Sequence record: OK272482.1
DNA from: Escherichia phage JLBYU08
Reading direction: 5' to 3' (one strand)
Length of the DNA stretch: 64,000 bases
Part shown: piece by piece, positions 566 through 59,121 of the stretch
Position numbering within the stretch: the first letter of the stretch is position 1
Layout: every line of letters begins with the position of its first letter
The notes under the pieces: model-generated
What the model saw: the letters and a program-made list of their open reading frames with translations, nothing else
What the model was told of the DNA's origin: nothing
Databases searched by the model: none
Position numbers and translations under genes: made by a program

Positions 566-1848
566 TGCATCAAATCAAAACAACACTGTACGCACTGAAC
601 AAAGATGGCAGCTACCAACAGTGGAAAGTATTCACTGATGGCGAAAAGGTTATCGTAGAGTTTGGCAAGCTTGACGGTAAATTGCAGTACAAAGAGACGG
701 TATGTACACCTAAAAACGTAGGTCGTGCCAACGAGACTACAGCTGAGCAACAGGCCGAGCTTGAGGCTATCAGCAAGTGGGAAAAACAAGTCCGTCTGGG
801 GTATGTTGAAAACATGGAAGATTGCGAGCAGGGTGTTGATCTTTTACCTATGCTGGTGCATGACTACCTGAAGCGTGGCAAGGCACTTAAATTACCTTGC
901 TGGATCTTGCGTAAGTTAGATGGCCTTCGTCTGCTTGTTGTTTTCCAAAATGGTGAGCCTAAATTTATTTCCCGTGGTAATAAGTCCTACCCTATTCAAG
1001 GAAAGCTTTTAGAGCAACTTCGTTCTTTCCATTCTACCACTGGGATTAAACAACTTGATGGGGAACTATACATTCATGGTCTTCCTTTGCAGAAAATAGT
1101 GTCTCTTGCTAAACGGTGGCGCACACAGGAAGAGATTCAGGCCGAGATCGATAAAGACTATGAGGCAGATAAAAAACGCCGTCATGCAGCAATTAAGGCA
1201 GGCTTATCAACATACAAAAACTTCAACAAGGTAGATATTCCTGTCGATGTTGAGCCTGTTCGTGATGATTTGCGTTACGGTGGATACTGTAGCTACGATC
1301 TGGAGTATCACATTTTTGATATTCCTAGCGACAAGGTGTGGTGGGATCCAGAAACAGAGTCTGGACGCTGCAAGGATCTTATGGATGCAGAGGATACCGT
1401 TACCACTCTGATGCTTGATCATATCAAGGTTGTTGACGCAGAGCTTGCGTACACAGTTGATCATTGCGAAGAATCTGTTGGTATATTCATGTCCGAAGGA
1501 TATGAAGGTACTATCATGCGTAATTTCTGCGGTAAATATGAGTATGGTCAGCGAACATCTGAAGCATTGAAATGGAAAAAGTTCAACGACGCAGAGGTGA
1601 AAGTTATTGACGTTGAGAAAGATAAGAATGATGAAGGTGTTCTTATCTGTGTTGACAAGGAAGGTGTTGTTGTTAAAATGAAGATGAAAGGCACGCACGA
1701 GGAGCGTAGCTATGACAGGATGCAGGAAATGATCGGCAAGTTTGTCACCTTCAAATACCAAGCAAGGACAGAAGACAACAACTACCAATTCCCTGTCGGT
1801 ATCTGCGTCCGAAATGTTAACCCAGACACTTGGGAGGTGCTTGAATGA
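565..1848 (+). CDS. ATP-dependent DNA ligase
   Basis: 427 aa; nucleotidyltransferase motif I KxDG (ILRKLDGLR), motif IV EGTIMR, motif V LKWKKF. Confidence 0.85.
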   Translation: MHQIKTTLYALNKDGSYQQWKVFTDGEKVIVEFGKLDGKLQYKETVCTPKNVGRANETTAEQQAELEAISKWEKQVRLGYVENMEDCEQGVDLLPMLVHDYLKRGKALKLPCWILRKLDGLRLLVVFQNGEPKFISRGNKSYPIQGKLLEQLRSFHSTTGIKQLDGELYIHGLPLQKIVSLAKRWRTQEEIQAEIDKDYEADKKRRHAAIKAGLSTYKNFNKVDIPVDVEPVRDDLRYGGYCSYDLEYHIFDIPSDKVWWDPETESGRCKDLMDAEDTVTTLMLDHIKVVDAELAYTVDHCEESVGIFMSEGYEGTIMRNFCGKYEYGQRTSEALKWKKFNDAEVKVIDVEKDKNDEGVLICVDKEGVVVKMKMKGTHEERSYDRMQEMIGKFVTFKYQARTEDNNYQFPVGICVRNVNPDTWEVLE

Positions 1849-1971
1849 TGTAGGAAGGTTCAGTAGGTAACGGTAGCCAATTGAATGATGGTTTTCAATC
1901 GGCACCTACATAACCACACTGTGTAGTGTTGTTGATCGTGTTAGTTATGAGTAAACTGGAGAGTATGAAAA

Positions 1972-2442
1972 ATGAAACTTGATAAAAATGTTCAACGAAA
2001 AGCTTTCTTGGACATGATCGCATATTCGGAAGGCACAGATAATGGTAGGCAACCCACTAAGGATCGGGGATACGATGTCATAGTTGGTGGCAAGCTGTTT
2101 AGCGATTACAGCAAGCATCCAGGTGTGTACGTTAAGCTAAATGCTAAACTTACCTCCTCCGCTGCTGGTCGTTACCAGGTTTTGGAGAAGTTTGCTAAAC
2201 ACTACATGGAACAGTTAGGATTGCCAGATTTTGGCCCCGCCAGTCAGGACAAGATTGCGTTGCAACTGATCCGTGAGTGCAAGGCTCTCGCCGACATTGA
2301 CGAAGGGCGTATCCACGAGGCTATCCATAAATGCCGTTCCCGCTGGGCTTCGTTACCTGGTGCTGGATATGGTCAGCATGAACAGAAGATCGAGAAGTTG
2401 ATCGAGGTGTTTAAAAAGGCAGGCGGTGTTGTCCTTGATTGA
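1972..2442 (+). CDS. endolysin, lambda R-like lytic transglycosylase
   Basis: 156 aa; colinear with lambda R as I recall it (FLDMIAYSEGTDNGRQ, GYDVIVGG, AAGRYQ, WASLPGAGYGQ). Confidence 0.9.
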   Translation: MKLDKNVQRKAFLDMIAYSEGTDNGRQPTKDRGYDVIVGGKLFSDYSKHPGVYVKLNAKLTSSAAGRYQVLEKFAKHYMEQLGLPDFGPASQDKIALQLIRECKALADIDEGRIHEAIHKCRSRWASLPGAGYGQHEQKIEKLIEVFKKAGGVVLD

Positions 2443-2445
2443 TCA

Positions 2446-2474
2446 TTGACATAACCACACGGACGTGGTATTGT
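2446..2474 (+). promoter_or_regulatory. sigma70-type promoter
   Basis: TTGACA-N17-TATTGT upstream of 2506 gene. Confidence 0.5.
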
Positions 2475-2505
2475 TACCTCATAAAATGTTTAGGAGGGCT
2501 TAACC

Positions 2506-2712
2506 ATGAAAGATTTTCTGTTGGCAATTTTGTTCATGGTAGCATGTCTGTCCTGTGGTGTCGTGTTTGCAGGTGAAACAGCGTATCTTGTCGATGTATA
2601 TCGGGACAATGGTAAACGTATTTGCCTTTATGAGACAAGTCAAGGTGAGCTCTACGAGCTTGTGAAACAAGGTGAGGCAGGTTCCTGCCCTCGCACCCAT
2701 TTCTTTGAATGA
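2506..2712 (+). CDS. small secreted protein or lipoprotein (a lysis accessory role is only a guess)
   Basis: 68 aa; N-terminal hydrophobic segment FLLAILFMVACLSCG with Cys; RBS AGGAGGG 7 nt upstream; directly after endolysin. Confidence 0.5.
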   Translation: MKDFLLAILFMVACLSCGVVFAGETAYLVDVYRDNGKRICLYETSQGELYELVKQGEAGSCPRTHFFE

Positions 2713-2722
2713 GGGAGAACAC

Positions 2723-3187
2723 GTGGAAGACGGACGTTTAATGAAGTCTGAACGCAGGCTTATTGTGCAACTGATCCCAGAAACAGCTTGGTATAATAAC
2801 CTCCGAAACGCTGTGAAGAAGAGTGAGTGGGATAAGATACGTAAGAAGTGCTATAGAGAAGCCAACTACACTTGTGAGGTGTGCGGCGGTAAAGGCAGCA
2901 AACACCCAGTGGAGTGTCATGAACTTTACACTTTCGAAGAGGGAGTGATCCGGCTTGTCGGACTGATAGCACTGTGCCCGGATTGTCACACATCGGTGCA
3001 TCCTGGGTTAGCAAATATCCGTGGAAAGTATGCTCAGGCAGTTAATCAGTTGGCTAAGGTGAATAAGATCACCAAGAGTATGGCAGAGGCGTATTACCGA
3101 GACTGCTTTGCAGAGTGGCGTGAGCTTAGTAAAGTTCCAGAATGGAAGACTGACTTTTCGTGGATAGAGGGTTACCTTGATGGCTAA
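2723..3187 (+). CDS. HNH-type (beta-beta-alpha-Me, zinc-binding) nuclease-like protein
   Basis: CEVCGG...ECHELY...CPDCHTSVH pattern; start moved to GTG 2723 (RBS GAGGGAG) or ATG 2741; the track start 2672 overlaps the upstream gene. Confidence 0.55.
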   Translation: MEDGRLMKSERRLIVQLIPETAWYNNLRNAVKKSEWDKIRKKCYREANYTCEVCGGKGSKHPVECHELYTFEEGVIRLVGLIALCPDCHTSVHPGLANIRGKYAQAVNQLAKVNKITKSMAEAYYRDCFAEWRELSKVPEWKTDFSWIEGYLDG

Positions 3188-3470
3188 GAGACCTGTAAAA
3201 GAGAAATTCGATAAGACAGCTTTTGTATTCGATACACCTCTGGACGACATCATTAGAGGTATGCAATCATTGTATCGGAAGGCTGAATCTGAGCAGCTGT
3301 CGGAATCAGAACTTTACTGGCTCGGTTGGTGGGAGTTAAACCTGCCTAAAGCTGAAAGTTCTTCTCTGAGAACTGTTAAAACGTGCGCCCAAGAAAACGC
3401 TGCACTTGGAATCTACCACAAAAGGAAAAGATCAACAAAAAGCTCTCCAAGAAAGACTAAAAAGTCTTGA
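3177..3470 (+). CDS. hypothetical protein
   Basis: 97 aa; overlaps upstream stop; basic tail KRKRSTKSSPRKTKKS. Confidence 0.5.
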   Translation: MMAKRPVKEKFDKTAFVFDTPLDDIIRGMQSLYRKAESEQLSESELYWLGWWELNLPKAESSSLRTVKTCAQENAALGIYHKRKRSTKSSPRKTKKS

Positions 3471-3496
3471 CAAAAGTGTTATTAATCTGATATTAT
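3467..3496 (+). promoter_or_regulatory. sigma70-type promoter
   Basis: TTGACA-N18-TATTAT, 34 nt before ATG 3530. Confidence 0.6.
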
Positions 3497-3529
3497 CGGT
3501 CAGATATCTATAAACTAGGAGAACTAGAT

Positions 3530-3838
3530 ATGCTTAAAATTTTTATTGTTGAAGATAAAGATATTGTCCAGTTGTATGCAAACGAGAATCATAAAGGTAT
3601 GATTCTGAAGAAGGCAAGCAACCTTCATGAAAACACAATTCAACCTGGCGATGTAATTAAGATCTGTGGTTATATGATACCAGACTCCTTGATGAAAATA
3701 ACCCACCACTGGGGGTCTAATCCGTTCCTTTTTGAAAAGTATTGGGATGTTGAGTCACTTATTGCAGAGAGTGATGATGCATTCCATTACAGCATCCAAC
3801 CATCTTGCAGAATAACTAACAGGAGGGTCTTTGAGTAG
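3530..3838 (+). CDS. hypothetical protein
   Basis: 102 aa; preceded by promoter 3467-3496 and RBS AGGAG. Confidence 0.55.
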   Translation: MLKIFIVEDKDIVQLYANENHKGMILKKASNLHENTIQPGDVIKICGYMIPDSLMKITHHWGSNPFLFEKYWDVESLIAESDDAFHYSIQPSCRITNRRVFE

Positions 3839-4970
3839 AGAATATCCACTTATTGAGTCCATAGATTGTCTGGCTGATCTTCTTGAACCTGACGCTATAG
3901 TTTATTATGACTTCGATCAGGTTGCATATCAAGCTGCAGCAAGTTGTGAAAAAAGGACAATTGAGGTAACACACAAAGCCTCCGGACGTAAGAAGATGTT
4001 TAAAACACGAACAGAGTTCTGGGGGCGGCAGAAGAACACAGTTGGTGGTTGGTTAAAAGCTGAGAATACCAACCGTGAAGCTGCATGTAAAAAGGCTGGC
4101 AAGGAGTTTATTCCGTGGACACGAGAAGATTTCGATGTCTTGGATATCCAAACCCCTGATCCTGTAGAGAACTGCTTGCACACAATTAAGTGTAAAGCGA
4201 ATGCAGTCCTTAATTATCTCGGTATTCCGGAAGATCGGTGCGTGGGGGTACTTGGAGGCACAGGTAATTTCAGACTAGATCTTCCCATGCCGGAAAGATA
4301 TAAAGCCAACCGTAACAATACTCTTCGACCACTGCTGCTTGGAGATGCAAGACAGTATCTCCAAAAGCAGTATAATGCTCAAGTGATCAACGGTATCGAG
4401 GCTGACGACTGGTTAGCTATCCAGCAATTTGAAGGTTGGAACCACTACCAAAAAACAGGTAAGTTCAACAAGTTTATTATCTCTATTGATAAGGACCAAA
4501 GAACACTGCCGGGGCTTGTGTTCGATCCCATGCGAAACGATAAGGGAGATTTTGTAAGGGAAACCCCCATGCTGATCGATAACGGTATGGGGAACATCTT
4601 CATGAAGCCTAATGGAGAGGTTGGTGGTTACGGAATGCTGTTCTTCGGATACCAAATGCTGTGTGGTGACTCTGCCGACAATATCAAGCCGTATCAAGGA
4701 CTTATCGGTAAGGGTAAGTTCGGGGATGCCTCAGCATTCTACCTACTGTCTCAGTGCAGCACTCCAAAGGAGATGTGGGTGGCTATTATTGATCAGTACA
4801 AGAAGTGGTTCCCGAAAGGTGTTGTTAAGTATACTGACTTCAATGGTGTTGATCGTAGAATTTCCGTAGGTCAATGGATGAGTATAATTTTTGACTGTTT
4901 GTATATGAAGCGAACATTCAATGATCAAACAAAACTTGTTAACGTTCTTAGAAATGTTGGAGCAATTTGA
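3831..4970 (+). CDS. 5'-3' exonuclease / flap endonuclease (FEN family)
   Basis: 379 aa; TTG start after RBS AGGAGGG; acidic metal-site motif GIEADDW and H3TH-like GDSADNIKPYQGLIGKG. Confidence 0.7.
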   Translation: MSREYPLIESIDCLADLLEPDAIVYYDFDQVAYQAAASCEKRTIEVTHKASGRKKMFKTRTEFWGRQKNTVGGWLKAENTNREAACKKAGKEFIPWTREDFDVLDIQTPDPVENCLHTIKCKANAVLNYLGIPEDRCVGVLGGTGNFRLDLPMPERYKANRNNTLRPLLLGDARQYLQKQYNAQVINGIEADDWLAIQQFEGWNHYQKTGKFNKFIISIDKDQRTLPGLVFDPMRNDKGDFVRETPMLIDNGMGNIFMKPNGEVGGYGMLFFGYQMLCGDSADNIKPYQGLIGKGKFGDASAFYLLSQCSTPKEMWVAIIDQYKKWFPKGVVKYTDFNGVDRRISVGQWMSIIFDCLYMKRTFNDQTKLVNVLRNVGAI

Positions 4971-55265: not shown

Positions 55266-55460
55266 CTATACAAACTCTGCAAGTGTTGTGTTGTTCACTG
55301 CACCGCAGTAAATGGAGTATCCCAGCCCATTAAAGTGCAGAAACCACGGCGTGCCGGAATTATCTTTCACGTAGACATCGCCGTTGCTTGTAAAGGGCCA
55401 ATATTCTTCACCAAGGGTGAAATACCTACTCATACCCTCAGCCAGATACTTTACTTTCAT
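55266..55460 (-). CDS. small protein, tandem paralogue 1 (..KDxxGxxWFL..)
   Basis: 64 aa; VYVKDNSGTPWFLHF. Confidence 0.5.
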   Translation of the reverse strand: MKVKYLAEGMSRYFTLGEEYWPFTSNGDVYVKDNSGTPWFLHFNGLGYSIYCGAVNNTTLAEFV

Positions 55461-55684
55461 AGGCCCTCTTCAACAGCTACAAACTTGGCAAGCAGGGTGG
55501 TTCCGTAGATATGATACTCACCGTTTGCCAGATGGGAGATAAACCAGGCAATCCCTTCCTCGTCTTTAATCATCTTGTTTGCACGATTTTTATCGTAATA
55601 AACCTCGTAGGTCTTTCCTTCTTTAAAGAATGACAGGTCTGTCATCTTTTCTTCTACAAAGGTAGCTTTAACCAAAGTCGTCAT
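55457..55684 (-). CDS. small protein, tandem paralogue 2
   Basis: 75 aa; MIKDEEGIAWFISHL. Confidence 0.5.
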   Translation of the reverse strand: MTTLVKATFVEEKMTDLSFFKEGKTYEVYYDKNRANKMIKDEEGIAWFISHLANGEYHIYGTTLLAKFVAVEEGL

Positions 55685-55965
55685 TGATCGGTCTCCTTCT
55701 TGTTAAGTCTGAATACTGCAATAATAGCATTCCCAAGGTGCAGTGTCAAGTCATTTCCAAGATACCACAGCATCCCACGGTCATCTTTAATGAAAGGGTA
55801 ACAATCTGGTGCCTTCCAGACATTGTACACTTTCCCAACCTGAAAGAAATCAGGCCCTGTTGGGATTTTGGTGCCAGGCCACACTTGAGATACCTGAACA
55901 CACTCCACCTGCATAATAACAGGAATGGTCATGGATGTAAATGTTTTTGTTGGCTCTACTACCAT
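55681..55965 (-). CDS. small protein, tandem paralogue 3
   Basis: 94 aa from ATG 55965 (RBS AAGAGGAG); FIKDDRGMLWYLGND; the longer track ORF would overlap polymerase exon 2. Confidence 0.5.
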   Translation of the reverse strand: MVVEPTKTFTSMTIPVIMQVECVQVSQVWPGTKIPTGPDFFQVGKVYNVWKAPDCYPFIKDDRGMLWYLGNDLTLHLGNAIIAVFRLNKKETDQ

Positions 55966-56014
55966 AAAAGTCTCCTCTTTGCTCAACAACACTTCCATGT
56001 GTTGATAGTTTACA

Positions 56015-56368
56015 TTAGTGACAATCACCCCAATTACGACCACACAAGTATTCACCTGTGATCTGGAACGGGACTCCCATCATTTTAGAAGCTTGCCAGA
56101 AGCAATGTACCACCATTTCGCCCACAGGACTCCAGATAAGTTCAAGCTTTCCGTCATCGTTCAAGATAGGATCGTACACCGTGTTTCCGTCTCTGTCAAC
56201 CACTTCGTTTCCGTTTTCATCCTTGCGTGCCTTTTTGTACTTATGACCGTCGAACACATGAAGTTTGGCCTCCTGCTCTGCCTTAAATGCTTCCAATTCT
56301 TCAATTGTGTCGAAGGTGTACACAGTCTTATACTTCGGTGTGTCAGGTACTTGAAGCTGATATTCATC
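56015..56368 (-). CDS. DNA polymerase (family A), exon 2
   Basis: Begins DEYQLQV (second half of motif C HDE) and ends ...GEYLCGRNWGDCH*, the typical Pol I-family C-terminus. Confidence 0.8.
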   Translation of the reverse strand, partial: DEYQLQVPDTPKYKTVYTFDTIEELEAFKAEQEAKLHVFDGHKYKKARKDENGNEVVDRDGNTVYDPILNDDGKLELIWSPVGEMVVHCFWQASKMMGVPFQITGEYLCGRNWGDCH

Positions 56369-56697
56369 CATCTGTTCAGGTAGGTCGTTAAGCTACCCCG
56401 CACCATTACGTGCATAGCCATACAGTTTCCTGTATGGATCGGACTACCTCACTGCCTTGGTAACAAGGCACCTCCCATTTCGACCGCACTTGCTGGCCTA
56501 CTCTACTCGCTTCTTCACACCAACCTATGTTGGAGCTATGCTTTCGATAGTCTCTGAACGTTCATCCTCTCGGATGCTTCGCTGCGGATTAGCATATTGA
56601 GCTTTTACCATACTCAGGTGTAAAAGTCAACTTAGCTTTCCCGTCAATTAAAGAGGTTATTCGACATAGATCACTCTATGAAGCCACAATGTTATTT
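56369..56697 (-). ncRNA. group I self-splicing intron (ORF-less) in DNA polymerase gene
   Basis: Minus-strand RNA contains P AAUUGACGGGAAAGCU, Q AAUCCGCAGC, R GUUCAGAGACUAUCG, S GAGGUAGUCCG in order. 5' splice site follows U, with exon CCAU pairing to intron GUGG. Intron ends in G. CAUU can pair with exon-2 GAUG (P10). Confidence 0.8.
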
Positions 56698-59121
56698 ATG
56701 GTAATAGATAATACGACGGACACCTTCATCGTACCACCCACGCTTCACCATTTGGTGGTGCATGAGTATCCCAACTAAGTCACACAACGATGCACCACCA
56801 TTTTGTTGGTATGCATTAAGTAAAGAGTGTTTAGATCGGGTCCAGATGGCATGACCATCAAAAGAGTATATAAACTTCTTACCAGTTGCTTCCCAGAATT
56901 TCTCCAGATCCTCTTTACGCCCCTTAAGACCAGGGTTGGCATCCCAAAGCGCATCGATTACCCTTTGCCCCAACTCTGGAGAGATATCCAGCATGTCTGC
57001 AACTTTATCTTTTTGTGCCCCGTACATAACCCCATACGTGATAGGTTTACCGTCGTTACGGGACACCTCTCTGCCTGCTACTTTTGTATATGCCTCAGCA
57101 TTGTTTTGGTGTGCGTCCCCGTTACTTACAACATCATAATACAAGCCGTTGTCGAACTCAAAGGCACCCCAAGCCCCGATAAGCTGCTCTAAGTTGGACC
57201 CGTCAATACCGATCTCAAAGTATCCTGGAGGAACACCCCACAGACTACGCATCTCTTTACCCATAACCACTTTAGGAGATGGTTTAGGCATGTTTGCACA
57301 AATACTGTGTTTCTGTCGGGAAGTGTTTGTTAGCCCAGAACTTTTAGCAGGAAGCTTATGGTCAATCTTCAAACGTGGGTGATTAAGAAGACCAGTATCA
57401 ACCTTATCCTCCTTGATTGGATCAAGGACCGATCTGCGGTTTCGCAATGATAACCACAAGACGATATCTTTAGCCATCTCTCCGTTCAATTTTTCAAGAT
57501 TTGGGCATAGGTGTCCAAACGTATCTTTCAGCTGCGGAGAAGTAATAAGTGCTCTGGCTTTTCTACGTATTTTCCCGAATACTTCCTTTTTAATCCTTTC
57601 GGAGTTAGGAAAGCTTCGGAACTTGTGCACGGTTGTCTGAAACTTAGCATCAGTTTTGTTCCAGAAGTTGATAATCAGGTCACAATACTCTGACTCTAAA
57701 AGCTCGTCCATGTATGCATATACTCGTGCATCAACATCTGCATCAGGTAGAGCTTTCTTCTTGCTGTCTTTAGTTACATCCTTAGTTCTCCACATTGTCG
57801 GAAGCCAACCAGCACTGATCAGGTATCGCTTAATGTCGTCCTGATTGCTGATTTTCATAGGTATCTTGCAGTCCGGCATTCGCTTCTGCTGTAGATCACT
57901 TATTGCCTGATCCATCAGCTCTTTAGGTAAAGGTTGTGGTGTGGAAGTGCCCTTAATATAGCCTCTCAAGAAATCAGCCATCTTATCAGGGTCTTTGCAG
58001 CCCATCTCTTCACACCATTTTATCCCCATCTTGCTGACATCTCCTGTGGAGGTAAATGCTCGCTTAGGCGGGGCTTTGAACTCCAAAGCACTCATGTCCA
58101 CAGGATAGCCAAGCTTATCTTTTAACCATTTCCAACCATTGTTGGAGATTGTCCCATCTTGGTTAAACGGCTTTTCAGGGAACTTGGGCCGCTGAGACAT
58201 TGACAGCTCTTTTAAAGGAAGTTGAGGTTCAACACGATCAGCGATTTCTTTCATCCACGCATCGCAACGGTCACGTAAAGCAATAGCTCCATCTATGTCG
58301 AAGTATACACCCTGACGGGCCTGCAGCTCCATCAGGAAGTGCTGCAGCATGCCTCGACGTAGTGCGTTCTTCCAGGTGATCTTCTTGAACCCTTTCGGCT
58401 TCTCTTTGGCTGGATCGTACATAAAGTTCTGCATGTCAGATTTGCCGTAGAATACACCTTTTGATTCCGCTACCAGCTCTTTCCAGAGCAGCTCCTGGAT
58501 GATAACGTCCTCGAATACACGATCCACATACTTCCACAACGGAAGATCGCGCCAGTCATCAATTTGAACTTTCTGGTTACCAAGGGCGTAGCCCCATGCC
58601 ATAAGGCCGTGAGGACCAACAGGCTGCATTTTCTTAGTAACCGGGTTGAATACAGAGTCCGGACAACCTTTTGGTAAAGGGCGATCAGGCCACAAGATTC
58701 GGCTCATCGCCAACGTATCAAACAGGTTAACCTGGTGGTCGTTGATAGTCCCCATACATTTAGGATCACGGAACATATCAAAATGAATACCGGATAATCT
58801 CTCCATCAGCATAAAGTCATAACTGTAGCAGTTATGGCAGTTCAAAGCTGTTGGTGACCAGTCGGAATTGCCTGTAAGCCAACCCTCCAACTCTGAAAAA
58901 TCTGCTATGCGAACTTCAAAATCTTTATAAAAAGTTTTCTTTGCCAGAATAAAGTTCTTAGCCTTCTCTATATCCTCTTCGGAGTAGTGTGTGCGGTCAT
59001 TTAGAGGAAGGAACAGCATAAAACGGTTCTTATTCAGCTCTTTAAACAGGCCGCAGTGATAATAAAGATCTGGGTCTTCCAGCAAACCGGATGACTCAAA
59101 ATCGAACGACCACATGCTCAT
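56698..59121 (-). CDS. DNA polymerase (family A) with 3'-5' exonuclease domain, exon 1
   Basis: 808 codons up to ...RRIIYYH; Exo I FDFESSG at N-terminus. The unspliced reading adds K* from intron sequence. Confidence 0.85.

What the first reader, a model, noticed from the sequence alone, without database searches (positions are those of the whole stretch)
56015..59121. DNA polymerase gene is split inside catalytic motif C by a 329-nt ORF-less group I intron
The ORF track shows an 809-aa family A polymerase ORF (Exo I FDFESSG at its N-terminus) that ends ...GVRRIIYYHK*. About 320 nt downstream is a 118-aa ORF, MDEYQLQVP...ITGEYLCGRNWGDCH*. The second ORF carries what is normally the extreme C-terminus of Pol I-family enzymes (G-x-NW-x-x-x-H-stop). 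Joining YYH to DEYQLQV recreates motif C (HDE, as in the Klenow and T7 enzymes). The 329 nt in between (minus strand 56697 to 56369) contain the four classical group I core elements in order: P AAUUGACGGGAAAGCU, Q AAUCCGCAGC, R GUUCAGAGACUAUCG and S GAGGUAGUCCG. UGACGG can pair with CCGCA with a bulged A, as in P4, and GACUA can pair with UAGUC, as in P7. Exon 1 ends in U, and its last bases CCAU can pair with intron GUGG to form P1 with the U.G wobble. The adjacent CAUU can pair with the first exon-2 bases GAUG to form P10. The intron ends in G. It contains no homing-endonuclease ORF. Annotation pipelines would report a truncated polymerase plus an orphan small gene.
Basis: partly seen in the sequence, partly recalled or inferred. 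Interest (0 to 1): 0.75.

Follow-up and report, generated by a model that had tools for sequence, protein, structure and literature searches.

The report
Self-splicing intron splits phage DNA polymerase
The DNA polymerase gene of this rV5-like coliphage is interrupted, exactly inside its catalytic His-Asp-Glu motif, by a 329-base self-splicing group I intron that has lost its endonuclease gene; this is a well-known kind of element that genome annotations of these phages routinely miss.

Summary
The observation and the interpretation both hold. The window is an rV5-like (Vequintavirus) coliphage. On the minus strand, polymerase exon 1 (56698-59121) and exon 2 (56015-56368) are separated by a 329-nt group I intron (56369-56697). 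Rfam scores it 72.5 bits against a cut-off of 50. Same-genus phages without the intron (JES2013, slur16) encode an uninterrupted 925-aa polymerase reading ...CAT|GAC..., which fixes the junction at YYH|DEYQ. That junction aligns with T7 His653|Asp654 in motif C. Across 18 introns at this site from several genera, 93% of proposed pairs form, against 35-41% in shifted controls, and 46 of 84 pairs show compensatory changes. The intron is IA2-like. Its nearest relatives (99.7% identical) carry a 168-aa HNH gene in the P6a loop, where the window has a 14-nt hairpin. The orthologous intron of Pectobacterium phage CB7 has been shown to splice. T7-like phages PhiI and W31 reportedly carry an intron at Pol I residue 881. 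This is a new member of a known kind. Its value is an annotation fix, since rV5's polymerase was published as a truncated 775-aa protein, and an example of the intron homing cycle.

The parts
56698..59121 (-). DNA polymerase exon 1 (808 codons, M1-H808). It carries the 3'-5' exonuclease motif (FDFES), motif A (GIDGSNLE) and motif B (KPITYGVMYGA). It ends in CAU, whose U is the 5' splice-site base.
   Evidence: ORF list. phmmer alignment to T7 DNA polymerase, E=7e-16. Pfam DNA_pol_A. 96-98% identical to Vequintavirus polymerase genes.
56369..56697 (-). Group I intron, 329 nt, subgroup IA2-like, with no endonuclease ORF. It begins AAAUAA, giving an in-frame stop at the second intron codon, and ends in G (omega-G, 56369).
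   Evidence: Rfam RF00028 72.5 bits. Exact insertion relative to intron-less JES2013 and slur16. Covariation test. MFE z=-3.1. Stops in all frames.
56015..56368 (-). DNA polymerase exon 2 (117 codons plus stop), D809-H925. It starts with the motif C Asp-Glu and ends GRNWGDCH*.
   Evidence: Contiguous with exon 1 in JES2013 and slur16 (2778-nt CDS). Alignment to T7 D654-E655.
56684..56701 (-). P1: exon CCAU plus intron AA (56701-56696) paired with the internal guide UUGUGG (56689-56684). The U.G wobble is at the 5' splice site (U56698).
   Evidence: Rfam alignment. All 6 pairs form in 18 of 18 homologues, and the U.G is invariant.
56665..56680 (-). P2 hairpin (CAUAG/CUAUG).
   Evidence: All 5 pairs show compensatory double changes and 100% of cells pair.
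56583..56657 (-). P3 5' strand (56657-56653), P4 with a bulged A (56646-56640 / 56588-56583), and P5 with the long P5a extension (56637-56591). This is the P4-P6 domain and contains the P and Q elements.
   Evidence: P3 3 of 5 pairs and P4 2 of 8 pairs with double changes. The MFE fold recovers P3, P5 and P5a.
56558..56582 (-). P6 and the P6a hairpin CAUCC-GAGA-GGAUG (56576-56563). In the nearest relatives this 14-nt hairpin is replaced by 528 nt holding a 168-aa HNH gene.
   Evidence: Alignment of intron variants. rV5 has the compensatory version CGCUC-AAAA-GAGCG. The same hairpin occurs in the terminase-gene intron of rV5.
56442..56552 (-). P7 (GACUA 56552-56548 / UAGUC 56446-56442, a pseudoknot with P3). 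It encloses P7.1 and P7.2 (56547-56482, joined by an invariant GUA), the P3 3' strand (56474-56470) and P8 (56469-56454). It contains the R and S elements.
   Evidence: P7 100% paired with U-A to C-G changes in 3 sequences. P7.2 has 4 of its 6 pairs (helices 13 and 14) with double changes, and P8 has 5 of 6. GUA is invariant in 18 of 18.
56379..56436 (-). P9 (GAAA-capped, 56436-56419), P9.1 (56413-56400) and P9.2 (56397-56379). The 3' tail UGAACAGAUG follows.
   Evidence: P9 99% paired with 5 of 7 pairs showing double changes. P9.1 is 100% paired. P9.2 is 99% paired with 4 of 5 pairs showing double changes.

Best explanation
The polymerase gene of this rV5-like phage is transcribed as one pre-mRNA in which a 329-nt group I (IA2-like) ribozyme sits between the His and Asp codons of catalytic motif C.

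The proposed mechanism has four steps:
1. The intron folds into P1-P9.2 with a P3/P7 pseudoknot.
2. An exogenous guanosine attacks the phosphate after U56698, which is held in the P1 U.G wobble.
3. The freed exon-1 3'-OH attacks after the terminal G56369.
4. The exons are ligated into an mRNA for a 925-aa family A polymerase with an intact HDE motif.

A UAA at intron codon 2 stops ribosomes that reach unspliced RNA.

The intron is the endonuclease-less form of a mobile intron. Its nearest relatives carry an HNH homing-endonuclease gene looped out of P6a, so this copy can still splice but probably cannot home by itself.

What is shown: the intron's identity, its exact boundaries, its conserved and co-varying structure, the reconstituted motif C, and the existence of empty-site and endonuclease-bearing alleles. 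What is inferred: that splicing actually occurs in this phage, and the chemical steps, which follow from the established mechanism of group I introns.
For: - Rfam RF00028 scores 72.5 bits against a gathering score of 50, E=1.9e-16, over the full-length model.
- Same-genus intron-less alleles read TATTACCAT|GACGAATAT and encode a contiguous 925-aa polymerase, so exactly 329 nt are inserted.
- The junction aligns to T7 H653|D654-E655. The Pfam DNA_pol_A match extends from residues 620-742 to 620-822 once the exons are joined.
- In the covariation test on 18 introns at this site, 93.1% of cells pair versus 35-41% when partners are slid. 46 of 84 pairs show double changes versus 7-18 slid. The score is 0.347 versus at most 0.07, and 0 of 500 shuffles reach it.
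- The MFE fold of the window's own intron has z=-3.1 and recovers P1, P2, P3, P5/P5a, P6a, P8 and P9.
- The backbone is 99.7% identical to HNH-bearing introns, and only P6a differs.
- The orthologous CB7 intron lies between ...YYH and DEYQ... and is reported spliced by RT-PCR and cDNA sequencing (PMC7344957).
- There is no Shine-Dalgarno sequence before the exon-2 ATG.
- All 18 intron-bearing alleles keep ACCAU|GAUGA, while intron-less alleles vary at the flanking synonymous bases.
Against: - There are no RNA or protein data for this phage, so splicing is inferred.
- The last three intron bases are ATG, in frame with exon 2. Relatives have TTG or GTG there, which are also possible start codons, so separate translation of exon 2 is not formally excluded.
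- P10 is only 3-4 bp and cannot be tested by covariation.
- The spliced protein's Pfam score (31.8) is still below the curated cut-off (34.3), which reflects how divergent this polymerase is.
- The covariation alignment was trimmed by hand at the ORF-bearing loops, and the structure was derived from the window sequence. That favours the observed values somewhat against the slid controls.
Confidence: 0.93

Rival explanations
1. Split polymerase without splicing. The intervening sequence is a dead intron remnant, and the enzyme is made as two polypeptides (809 aa ending YYHK, and 118 aa starting MDEYQ) that assemble after translation. The CB7 paper describes such a case for the Aeromonas phage Aeh1 NrdA, which is split by mobE.
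For: - The intron's last codon is ATG (TTG or GTG in relatives), in frame with exon 2.
- Public annotations call two separate genes.
- Non-splicing split genes in phages are cited in PMC7344957.
Against: - The break falls between His and the residue aligned with T7 D654, which from general knowledge is the catalytic Asp of motif C. This is a poor place to cut a polypeptide.
- There is no Shine-Dalgarno sequence within 20 nt of the ATG, and the P9.2 hairpin lies just upstream.
- Every ribozyme helix is maintained by compensatory changes across genera, which a dead remnant would not show.
- The CB7 orthologue splices.
Confidence: 0.04
2. The intron is real but is not efficiently self-splicing in this phage. 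It would depend on a host or phage factor, on translation, or on GTP level, so that it acts mainly as a timing or dosage control on polymerase production rather than as a neutral passenger.
For: - The Bastillevirinae study proposes introns as GTP-sensitive 'molecular on-switches' in rNDP reductase, polymerase and terminase genes, and it sees different splicing times in vivo (PMC11878797).
- Endonuclease-less forms persist in 27 database records (24 of the rV5 type and 3 of the window type).
Against: - 45 records of the same genus do without the intron, and their polymerase is otherwise nearly identical. A required regulatory role is therefore unlikely.
- No sequence feature specific to regulation was found.
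Confidence: 0.1
3. Assembly or sequencing artefact, or a pseudogenised polymerase.
For: None beyond the apparent truncation of the ORF.
Against: - The same 328/329-nt form is present in three independent genomes, and related forms are in more than 50 others.
- The exons are intact and in frame.
- The insertion is a complete ribozyme.
Confidence: 0.01

Closest known systems
HNH-bearing polymerase intron of other Vequintavirus phages (FFH2, Mangalyan, I29, C12, ECML-10; 843 nt)
   Same: Same insertion site and same ribozyme backbone (99.7% identical outside P6a to C12 and ECML-10). Same P1 guide and same 3' end.
   Different: Those carry a 528-nt P6a loop with a 168-aa HNH_3-type ORF, bracketed by its own stem (GGUGUAGUU/AACUACACC). 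The window has a 14-nt GAGA-capped hairpin instead. The window's combination, this backbone plus the short hairpin, is not in the phage collection. The three other ORF-less records of this length are about 94% identical.
Certrevirus CB7 / phiTE polymerase intron carrying HNH CB7_50 (PMC7344957)
   Same: Orthologous site (...RRIIYYH|DEYQLEV...). Same intron ends (CCAU|AAGUAACAUUGUGG ... UUUUG|GAUGA). It is part of the co-varying family. Splicing in infected cells is reported by RT-PCR and cDNA sequencing.
   Different: 687 nt, with a different 127-aa HNH ORF that begins in the P5 extension. That gene also has a second intron in motif B, which the window lacks. The paper called them group I introns only because they hold HNH genes, and gave no RNA structure.
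Group I introns of T7-like phages PhiI and W31 (Bonocora & Shub 2004, as cited in PMC3428280)
   Same: A family A polymerase gene of a phage of enterobacteria. Subgroup IA2. HNH gene in P6a. Insertion given as 'site 881' in E. coli Pol I numbering. From general knowledge, His881 is the His of the Klenow HDE motif, which would make it the same site as here.
   Different: The host phages are podoviruses with a distantly related polymerase. I could not obtain the PhiI/W31 sequences or the original paper. Identity of the site to the nucleotide, and homology of the ribozymes, are therefore untested. The window's copy has no endonuclease gene.
SPO1 / SP82 / Bastille / Pf-WMP3 / phiL7 polymerase introns
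   Same: Self-splicing group I introns (IA2 where stated) in phage family A polymerase genes, inserted in conserved catalytic-domain codons.
   Different: They sit at Pol I sites 674-676 (...RLS..NP|NLQ...), not in motif C. A 43-kb coliphage record that I checked (L020) has that site occupied while its motif C is intact.
First intron of the rV5 terminase large-subunit gene
   Same: An ORF-less group I intron in the same phage group (Rfam 84.9 bits). It shares an exact 37-nt stretch with the window's intron, UAAUCCGCAGCGAAGCAUCCGAGAGGAUGAACGUUCA, covering P4', P6 and the whole P6a hairpin.
   Different: It is in a different host gene with a different P1 guide, and similarity elsewhere is only about 76-85% or undetectable. 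It lies outside the window. It was annotated as an intron in the rV5 record (a joined CDS), unlike the polymerase intron.

Membership tests
Group I catalytic intron (Rfam RF00028) | Covariance-model score at or above the curated gathering score | tested here: met
   72.5 bits against 50, E=1.9e-16, model positions 1-253 of 253.
Group I catalytic intron (Rfam RF00028) | The 5' exon ends in U, which forms a U.G wobble with the internal guide sequence in P1 | tested here: met
   CCAU|AA pairs with UUGUGG. The U.G is present in 18 of 18 homologues.
Group I catalytic intron (Rfam RF00028) | The intron ends in G (omega-G) | tested here: met
   G56369. The boundary is fixed by comparison with intron-less alleles. 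G is invariant in 18 of 18.
Group I catalytic intron (Rfam RF00028) | Conserved core helices P3-P8 and P4-P6, with the P3/P7 pseudoknot, maintained by compensatory changes | tested here: met
   93.1% of cells pair and 46 of 84 pairs show double changes. P2, P3, P4, P7, P7.2, P8, P9, P9.1 and P9.2 each have at least one compensatory pair. Slid controls give 35-41% paired.
Group I catalytic intron (Rfam RF00028) | P10 pairing between the guide region and the 3' exon | tested here: inconclusive
   CAUU/GAUG can pair, but three of the four pairs are invariant and only the C varies, so there is no informative covariation. Exon 2 starts GAUGA in all 18 intron-bearing alleles, whereas two intron-less alleles have GAC.
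Group I catalytic intron (Rfam RF00028) | Guanosine-dependent self-splicing of the transcript | not testable with these tools
   This needs in vitro transcription with GTP, or RT-PCR. An orthologue (CB7) is reported spliced in vivo.
Subgroup IA2 | Extra helices P7.1 and P7.2 between P7 and the 3' strand of P3, joined by G-U-A (criterion as stated in PMC3428280) | tested here: met
   P7.1 and P7.2 lie at 56547-56482. The GUA just before P7.2 is invariant in 18 of 18. No subgroup-specific model was available, so I call it 'IA2-like'.
Mobile (homing) group I intron | The intron encodes a homing endonuclease | tested here: not met
   The longest ATG ORF inside the intron is 28 codons. Relatives carry HNH_3 or LAGLIDADG_2 genes in P6a, the P5 extension or P7.1.
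Mobile (homing) group I intron | Empty and occupied alleles of the same site exist among close relatives | tested here: met
   The phage collection holds 45 records with the empty site, 31 with the HNH intron, 24 with the 276-nt ORF-less form and 3 with the 328/329-nt ORF-less form.
Family A (Pol I-type) DNA polymerase (host gene) | Sequence similarity to characterised family A polymerases, with motifs A, B and C | tested here: met
   phmmer against T7 DNA polymerase chains gives E=7e-16. GIDGSNLE aligns with GIDASGLE, KPITYGVMYGA with KTFIYGFLYGA, and YYHDEYQL with WVHDEIQV.
Family A (Pol I-type) DNA polymerase (host gene) | Pfam PF00476 at or above its gathering score | tested here: not met
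   27.9 bits for exon 1 alone and 31.8 bits for the spliced protein, against a cut-off of 34.3. This is a divergent member. Splicing lengthens the match from profile positions 137-261 to 137-348.

The most novel reading that the evidence does not exclude
The endonuclease-less intron may not be merely a decaying passenger. It could be kept because an occupied site (invariant ACCAU|GAUGA split by the ribozyme) makes the polymerase gene immune to cleavage by the HNH endonuclease of co-infecting relatives. Its compact P6a hairpin may also have been installed by gene conversion from the paralogous terminase-gene intron in the same genome, which shares an exact 37-nt stretch. That would be an intragenomic route for purging endonuclease genes while keeping the ribozyme.
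Probability: 0.15. Interest if true: 0.5.

Novelty: new member of a known kind. Interest (0 to 1): 0.3.

Why it matters
- **Annotation.** The essential replicase of rV5-like phages, which are widely used as typing and therapy candidates, is mis-annotated in most records as a truncated polymerase plus a hypothetical protein. The type-phage paper reports a 775-aa enzyme. The true product is 925 aa and carries the residue that aligns with T7's motif C Asp654.
- **Evolution.** One polymerase codon boundary in one phage subfamily shows every stage of the homing cycle: empty site, intron with at least four HNH genes of different length and placement or a LAGLIDADG gene in three different loops, and endonuclease-less introns of two sizes. 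This makes a compact natural system for studying intron gain, endonuclease turnover and loss.
- **What it does not do.** It does not change what is known about how group I introns work.

Tried and rejected
- **PhiI/W31 paper.** I tried to read Bonocora & Shub 2004 (PMC529087) for the exact PhiI/W31 insertion point, but it is not held. A further literature probe found nothing more explicit than 'site 881'.
- **T7-sized records.** I suspected that 43-kb records matching parts of the intron were T7-like phages with the same site occupied. L020's intron is at the SPO1-type site (...RLSASNP|..QQLP...) and its motif C is intact. L021 is an Ounavirinae fragment. Rejected as same-site examples.
- **Other introns in the window.** A sensitive Rfam scan (E<=0.1) found none. 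No tRNAs were found either.
- **Bacterial copies.** The intron has no megablast match in 5,426 complete E. coli genomes, so it is not a prophage or host element.
- **Intein, frameshift or read-through.** Rejected. 329 is not a multiple of 3, and all frames are closed.
- **Separate translation of exon 2.** No ribosome-binding site was found.
- **Rfam on CB7.** Neither CB7 intron reaches the gathering score, although they are reported to splice. This shows the model loses ORF-laden copies, so absence of an Rfam hit is weak evidence.
- **Large protein and metagenome searches.** Not used. The annotated phage collection already answered the question.
Full report
**What is there**

The window is an rV5-like coliphage (Vequintavirus). 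The 3.3 kb around the finding is 96-98% identical to more than 100 phage records of that genus.

On the minus strand, an 809-aa ORF (56692-59121) starts MSMWSFDFESSG and ends ...RRIIYYHK*. A 118-aa ORF (56015-56371) starts MDEYQLQVP and ends GRNWGDCH*. Removing 56369-56697 (329 nt) joins two in-frame exons of 2424 and 354 nt into a 925-aa protein.

**Is it an intron?**

Rfam's group I intron model matches 56419-56707(-) at 72.5 bits (gathering score 50, E=1.9e-16) over the whole model. It is the only RNA-family match in the window, even at E<=0.1.

The window's own sequence folds to -102.6 kcal/mol (z=-3.1; none of 100 shuffles folds as well). The MFE structure independently contains P1, P2, P3, P5/P5a, P6a, P8 and P9.

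**Exact boundaries**

A tblastn search with the predicted junction region found same-genus phages that encode it in one piece at 99.5-100% identity. JES2013 and slur16 carry an uninterrupted 2778-nt (925-aa) polymerase CDS.

At the DNA level they read ...TATTACCAT|GACGAATAT.... The window reads ...TATTACCAT[329 nt]GATGAATAT.... The only consistent boundaries are therefore U56698 as the last exon base and G56369 as the last intron base. Both are required features of group I introns.

The spliced protein aligns to T7 DNA polymerase (E=7e-16), with YYH-D-E-YQL on WVH653-D654-E655-IQV. From general knowledge, T7 D654 is the motif C catalytic aspartate. The Pfam DNA_pol_A match grows from residues 620-742 to 620-822 after joining, although it stays just below the curated cut-off.

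**Structure and covariation**

I collected introns at this same codon boundary from 18 phages:

- Vequintavirus: six besides the window
- Avunavirus: 19-1-2 and Av-05
- Seunavirus: SSE121 and PVP-SE1
- Certrevirus: CR9 and phiTE
- Klebsiella phage KP12
- Aeromonas phage TS9
- Three Vibrio phages

All read ...(Y/D/S)YH|...|DE.... I trimmed the ORF-bearing loops and aligned the sequences. I then projected a P1-P9.2 model, written on the window sequence, onto the alignment.

| Measure | Proposed structure | Controls |
|---|---|---|
| Cells forming standard pairs | 93.1% | 35-41% (3' partners slid by 1-3 columns) |
| Pairs with changes on both sides | 46 of 84 | 7-18 (slid) |
| Covariation score | 0.347 | at most 0.07 (slid) |
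| Shuffles reaching the observed score | - | 0 of 500 |

P2, P3, P4, P7, P7.2, P8, P9, P9.1 and P9.2 each have compensatory pairs. P1 is invariant, including the splice-site U.G.

P7.1 and P7.2 lie between P7 and the 3' strand of P3, and are joined by an invariant GUA. This is the criterion for subgroup IA2 quoted in PMC3428280. The 50 nt beyond the Rfam match form P9.1 and P9.2.

P10 (CAUU/GAUG) is possible, but three of its four pairs are invariant and cannot be tested. Exon 2 begins GAUGA in all 18 intron-bearing alleles. Intron-less alleles vary at the flanking synonymous bases: CAC|GAT in CR3, and CAT|GAC in JES2013 and slur16.

**The missing endonuclease gene**

The intron has stops in all frames and no ORF above 28 codons.

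Its closest relatives, at 99.7% identity, are 843-nt introns. In these the 14-nt P6a hairpin CAUCC-GAGA-GGAUG is replaced by 528 nt, which carry a 168-aa HNH gene bracketed by their own stem.

Other lineages carry different cargo in the same backbone:

- other HNH genes in P6a (SSE121, CR9)
- an HNH gene starting in the P5 extension (phiTE, CB7, TS9)
- a LAGLIDADG gene in P7.1 (PVP-SE1)

Diagnostic junction searches of the phage collection give the following counts. Records include GenBank/RefSeq duplicates.

| State of the site | Records |
|---|---|
| Empty site | 45 |
| HNH-bearing 843-nt intron | 31 |
| 276-nt ORF-less rV5-type intron | 24 |
| 328/329-nt ORF-less form (the window's type) | 3 |

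All stages of the homing cycle therefore coexist in one genus. The window carries the rarest form.

**Mechanism**

Identity, boundaries, conserved fold and the restored catalytic motif are shown. Splicing itself is inferred. Four points support that inference:

- The fold is under selection across genera.
- The polymerase needs its motif C aspartate.
- No ribosome-binding site precedes exon 2.
- The orthologous CB7 intron lies between CB7_51 (...YYH) and CB7_49 (DEYQ...), and it is reported spliced in infected cells by RT-PCR and cDNA sequencing (PMC7344957).

The UAA at intron codon 2 would stop ribosomes on unspliced RNA.

**Rivals**

- A non-splicing split polymerase, as in the Aeh1 NrdA precedent cited. 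This is unlikely, for the reasons above.
- A regulatory 'on-switch' role, the idea raised in PMC11878797. This cannot be excluded, but 45 near-identical intron-less genomes argue that it is not required.
- An artefact. This is excluded by the independent genomes.

**What is known**

Group I introns in phage family A polymerase genes have been known since SPO1. PMC3428280 lists three sites: 674, 676 and, for the T7-like phages PhiI and W31, 881 in E. coli Pol I numbering. From general knowledge, His881-Asp882-Glu883 is the Klenow motif C, so the same site was probably described in 2004. I could not check this at nucleotide level.

For rV5-like phages, the searchable literature describes polymerase introns only for Certrevirus CB7, and without any RNA structure. 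The rV5 paper reports introns only in the terminase gene and a 775-aa polymerase. None of the records I inspected annotates the polymerase intron.

**Verdict**

The finding is correct and well supported. It is a new member of a known kind, with modest interest. Its value is an annotation correction and a clear example of endonuclease turnover and loss.

Noticed in passing
window 55266-56055 (-): Three adjacent small ORFs (64, 75 and 124 aa) immediately downstream of polymerase exon 2 align with each other at 26-37% identity. They share the pattern F..G..Y...KD..G..W...G...A.F. They form a tandem family of small paralogues of unknown function.
   Followed up: partly
L004 (Mangalyan) 577-3975; also JEP1 L019: The polymerase exon 1 of some relatives is 969 nt longer and stays in frame. 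The 323-aa insert follows ...NGDAH (window residues 671|672), starts CYSGDTQIL and ends VAVCGN|C. Its N-terminus gives a sub-threshold Hint-domain match (23.7 bits). It is a probable intein and is absent from the window.
   Followed up: partly
L026 (CB7) 822-1536; also L008, L009, L010, L014, L015, L017: A second intron site in the same gene lies in motif B (...TYG|(V)MYGAQ...). It is occupied, usually by an HNH-bearing intron, in CB7, phiTE, SSE121, KP12, Av-05, 19-1-2 and Vibrio phage 424E50-1. It is empty in the window.
   Followed up: partly
L027 (rV5 terminase gene) 459-737: The first terminase-gene intron of rV5 is ORF-less (Rfam 84.9 bits). It shares an exact 37-nt stretch, including the whole P6a hairpin, with the window's polymerase intron. 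The two are paralogous introns, and gene conversion between them is possible. The terminase gene is not in the window.
   Followed up: partly
L005 (JES2013) 119-853; L007 (FFH2) 580-1314: Some relatives have a free-standing 244-aa HNH endonuclease gene between the primase/helicase and polymerase genes, overlapping the polymerase start codon. The window lacks it.
   Followed up: no
phage collection records MG0656xx ('Campylobacter phage' C12, A147, A12a and others): About 20 records labelled as Campylobacter jejuni phages are 96-98% identical to E. coli Vequintavirus genomes across this region. Those inspected are flagged UNVERIFIED. The host labels are probably wrong.
   Followed up: no
window 56161-56421 (-): An 86-aa ORF starts inside the intron (in P9) and overlaps exon 2 out of frame. 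The same ORF is annotated in rV5 as 'ORF 226, hypothetical protein'. It is most likely a spurious gene call caused by the unrecognised intron.
   Followed up: partly
L026 (CB7): Neither of CB7's two experimentally spliced polymerase introns reaches the Rfam gathering score. Rfam-based screens will therefore miss ORF-laden members of this family.
   Followed up: no
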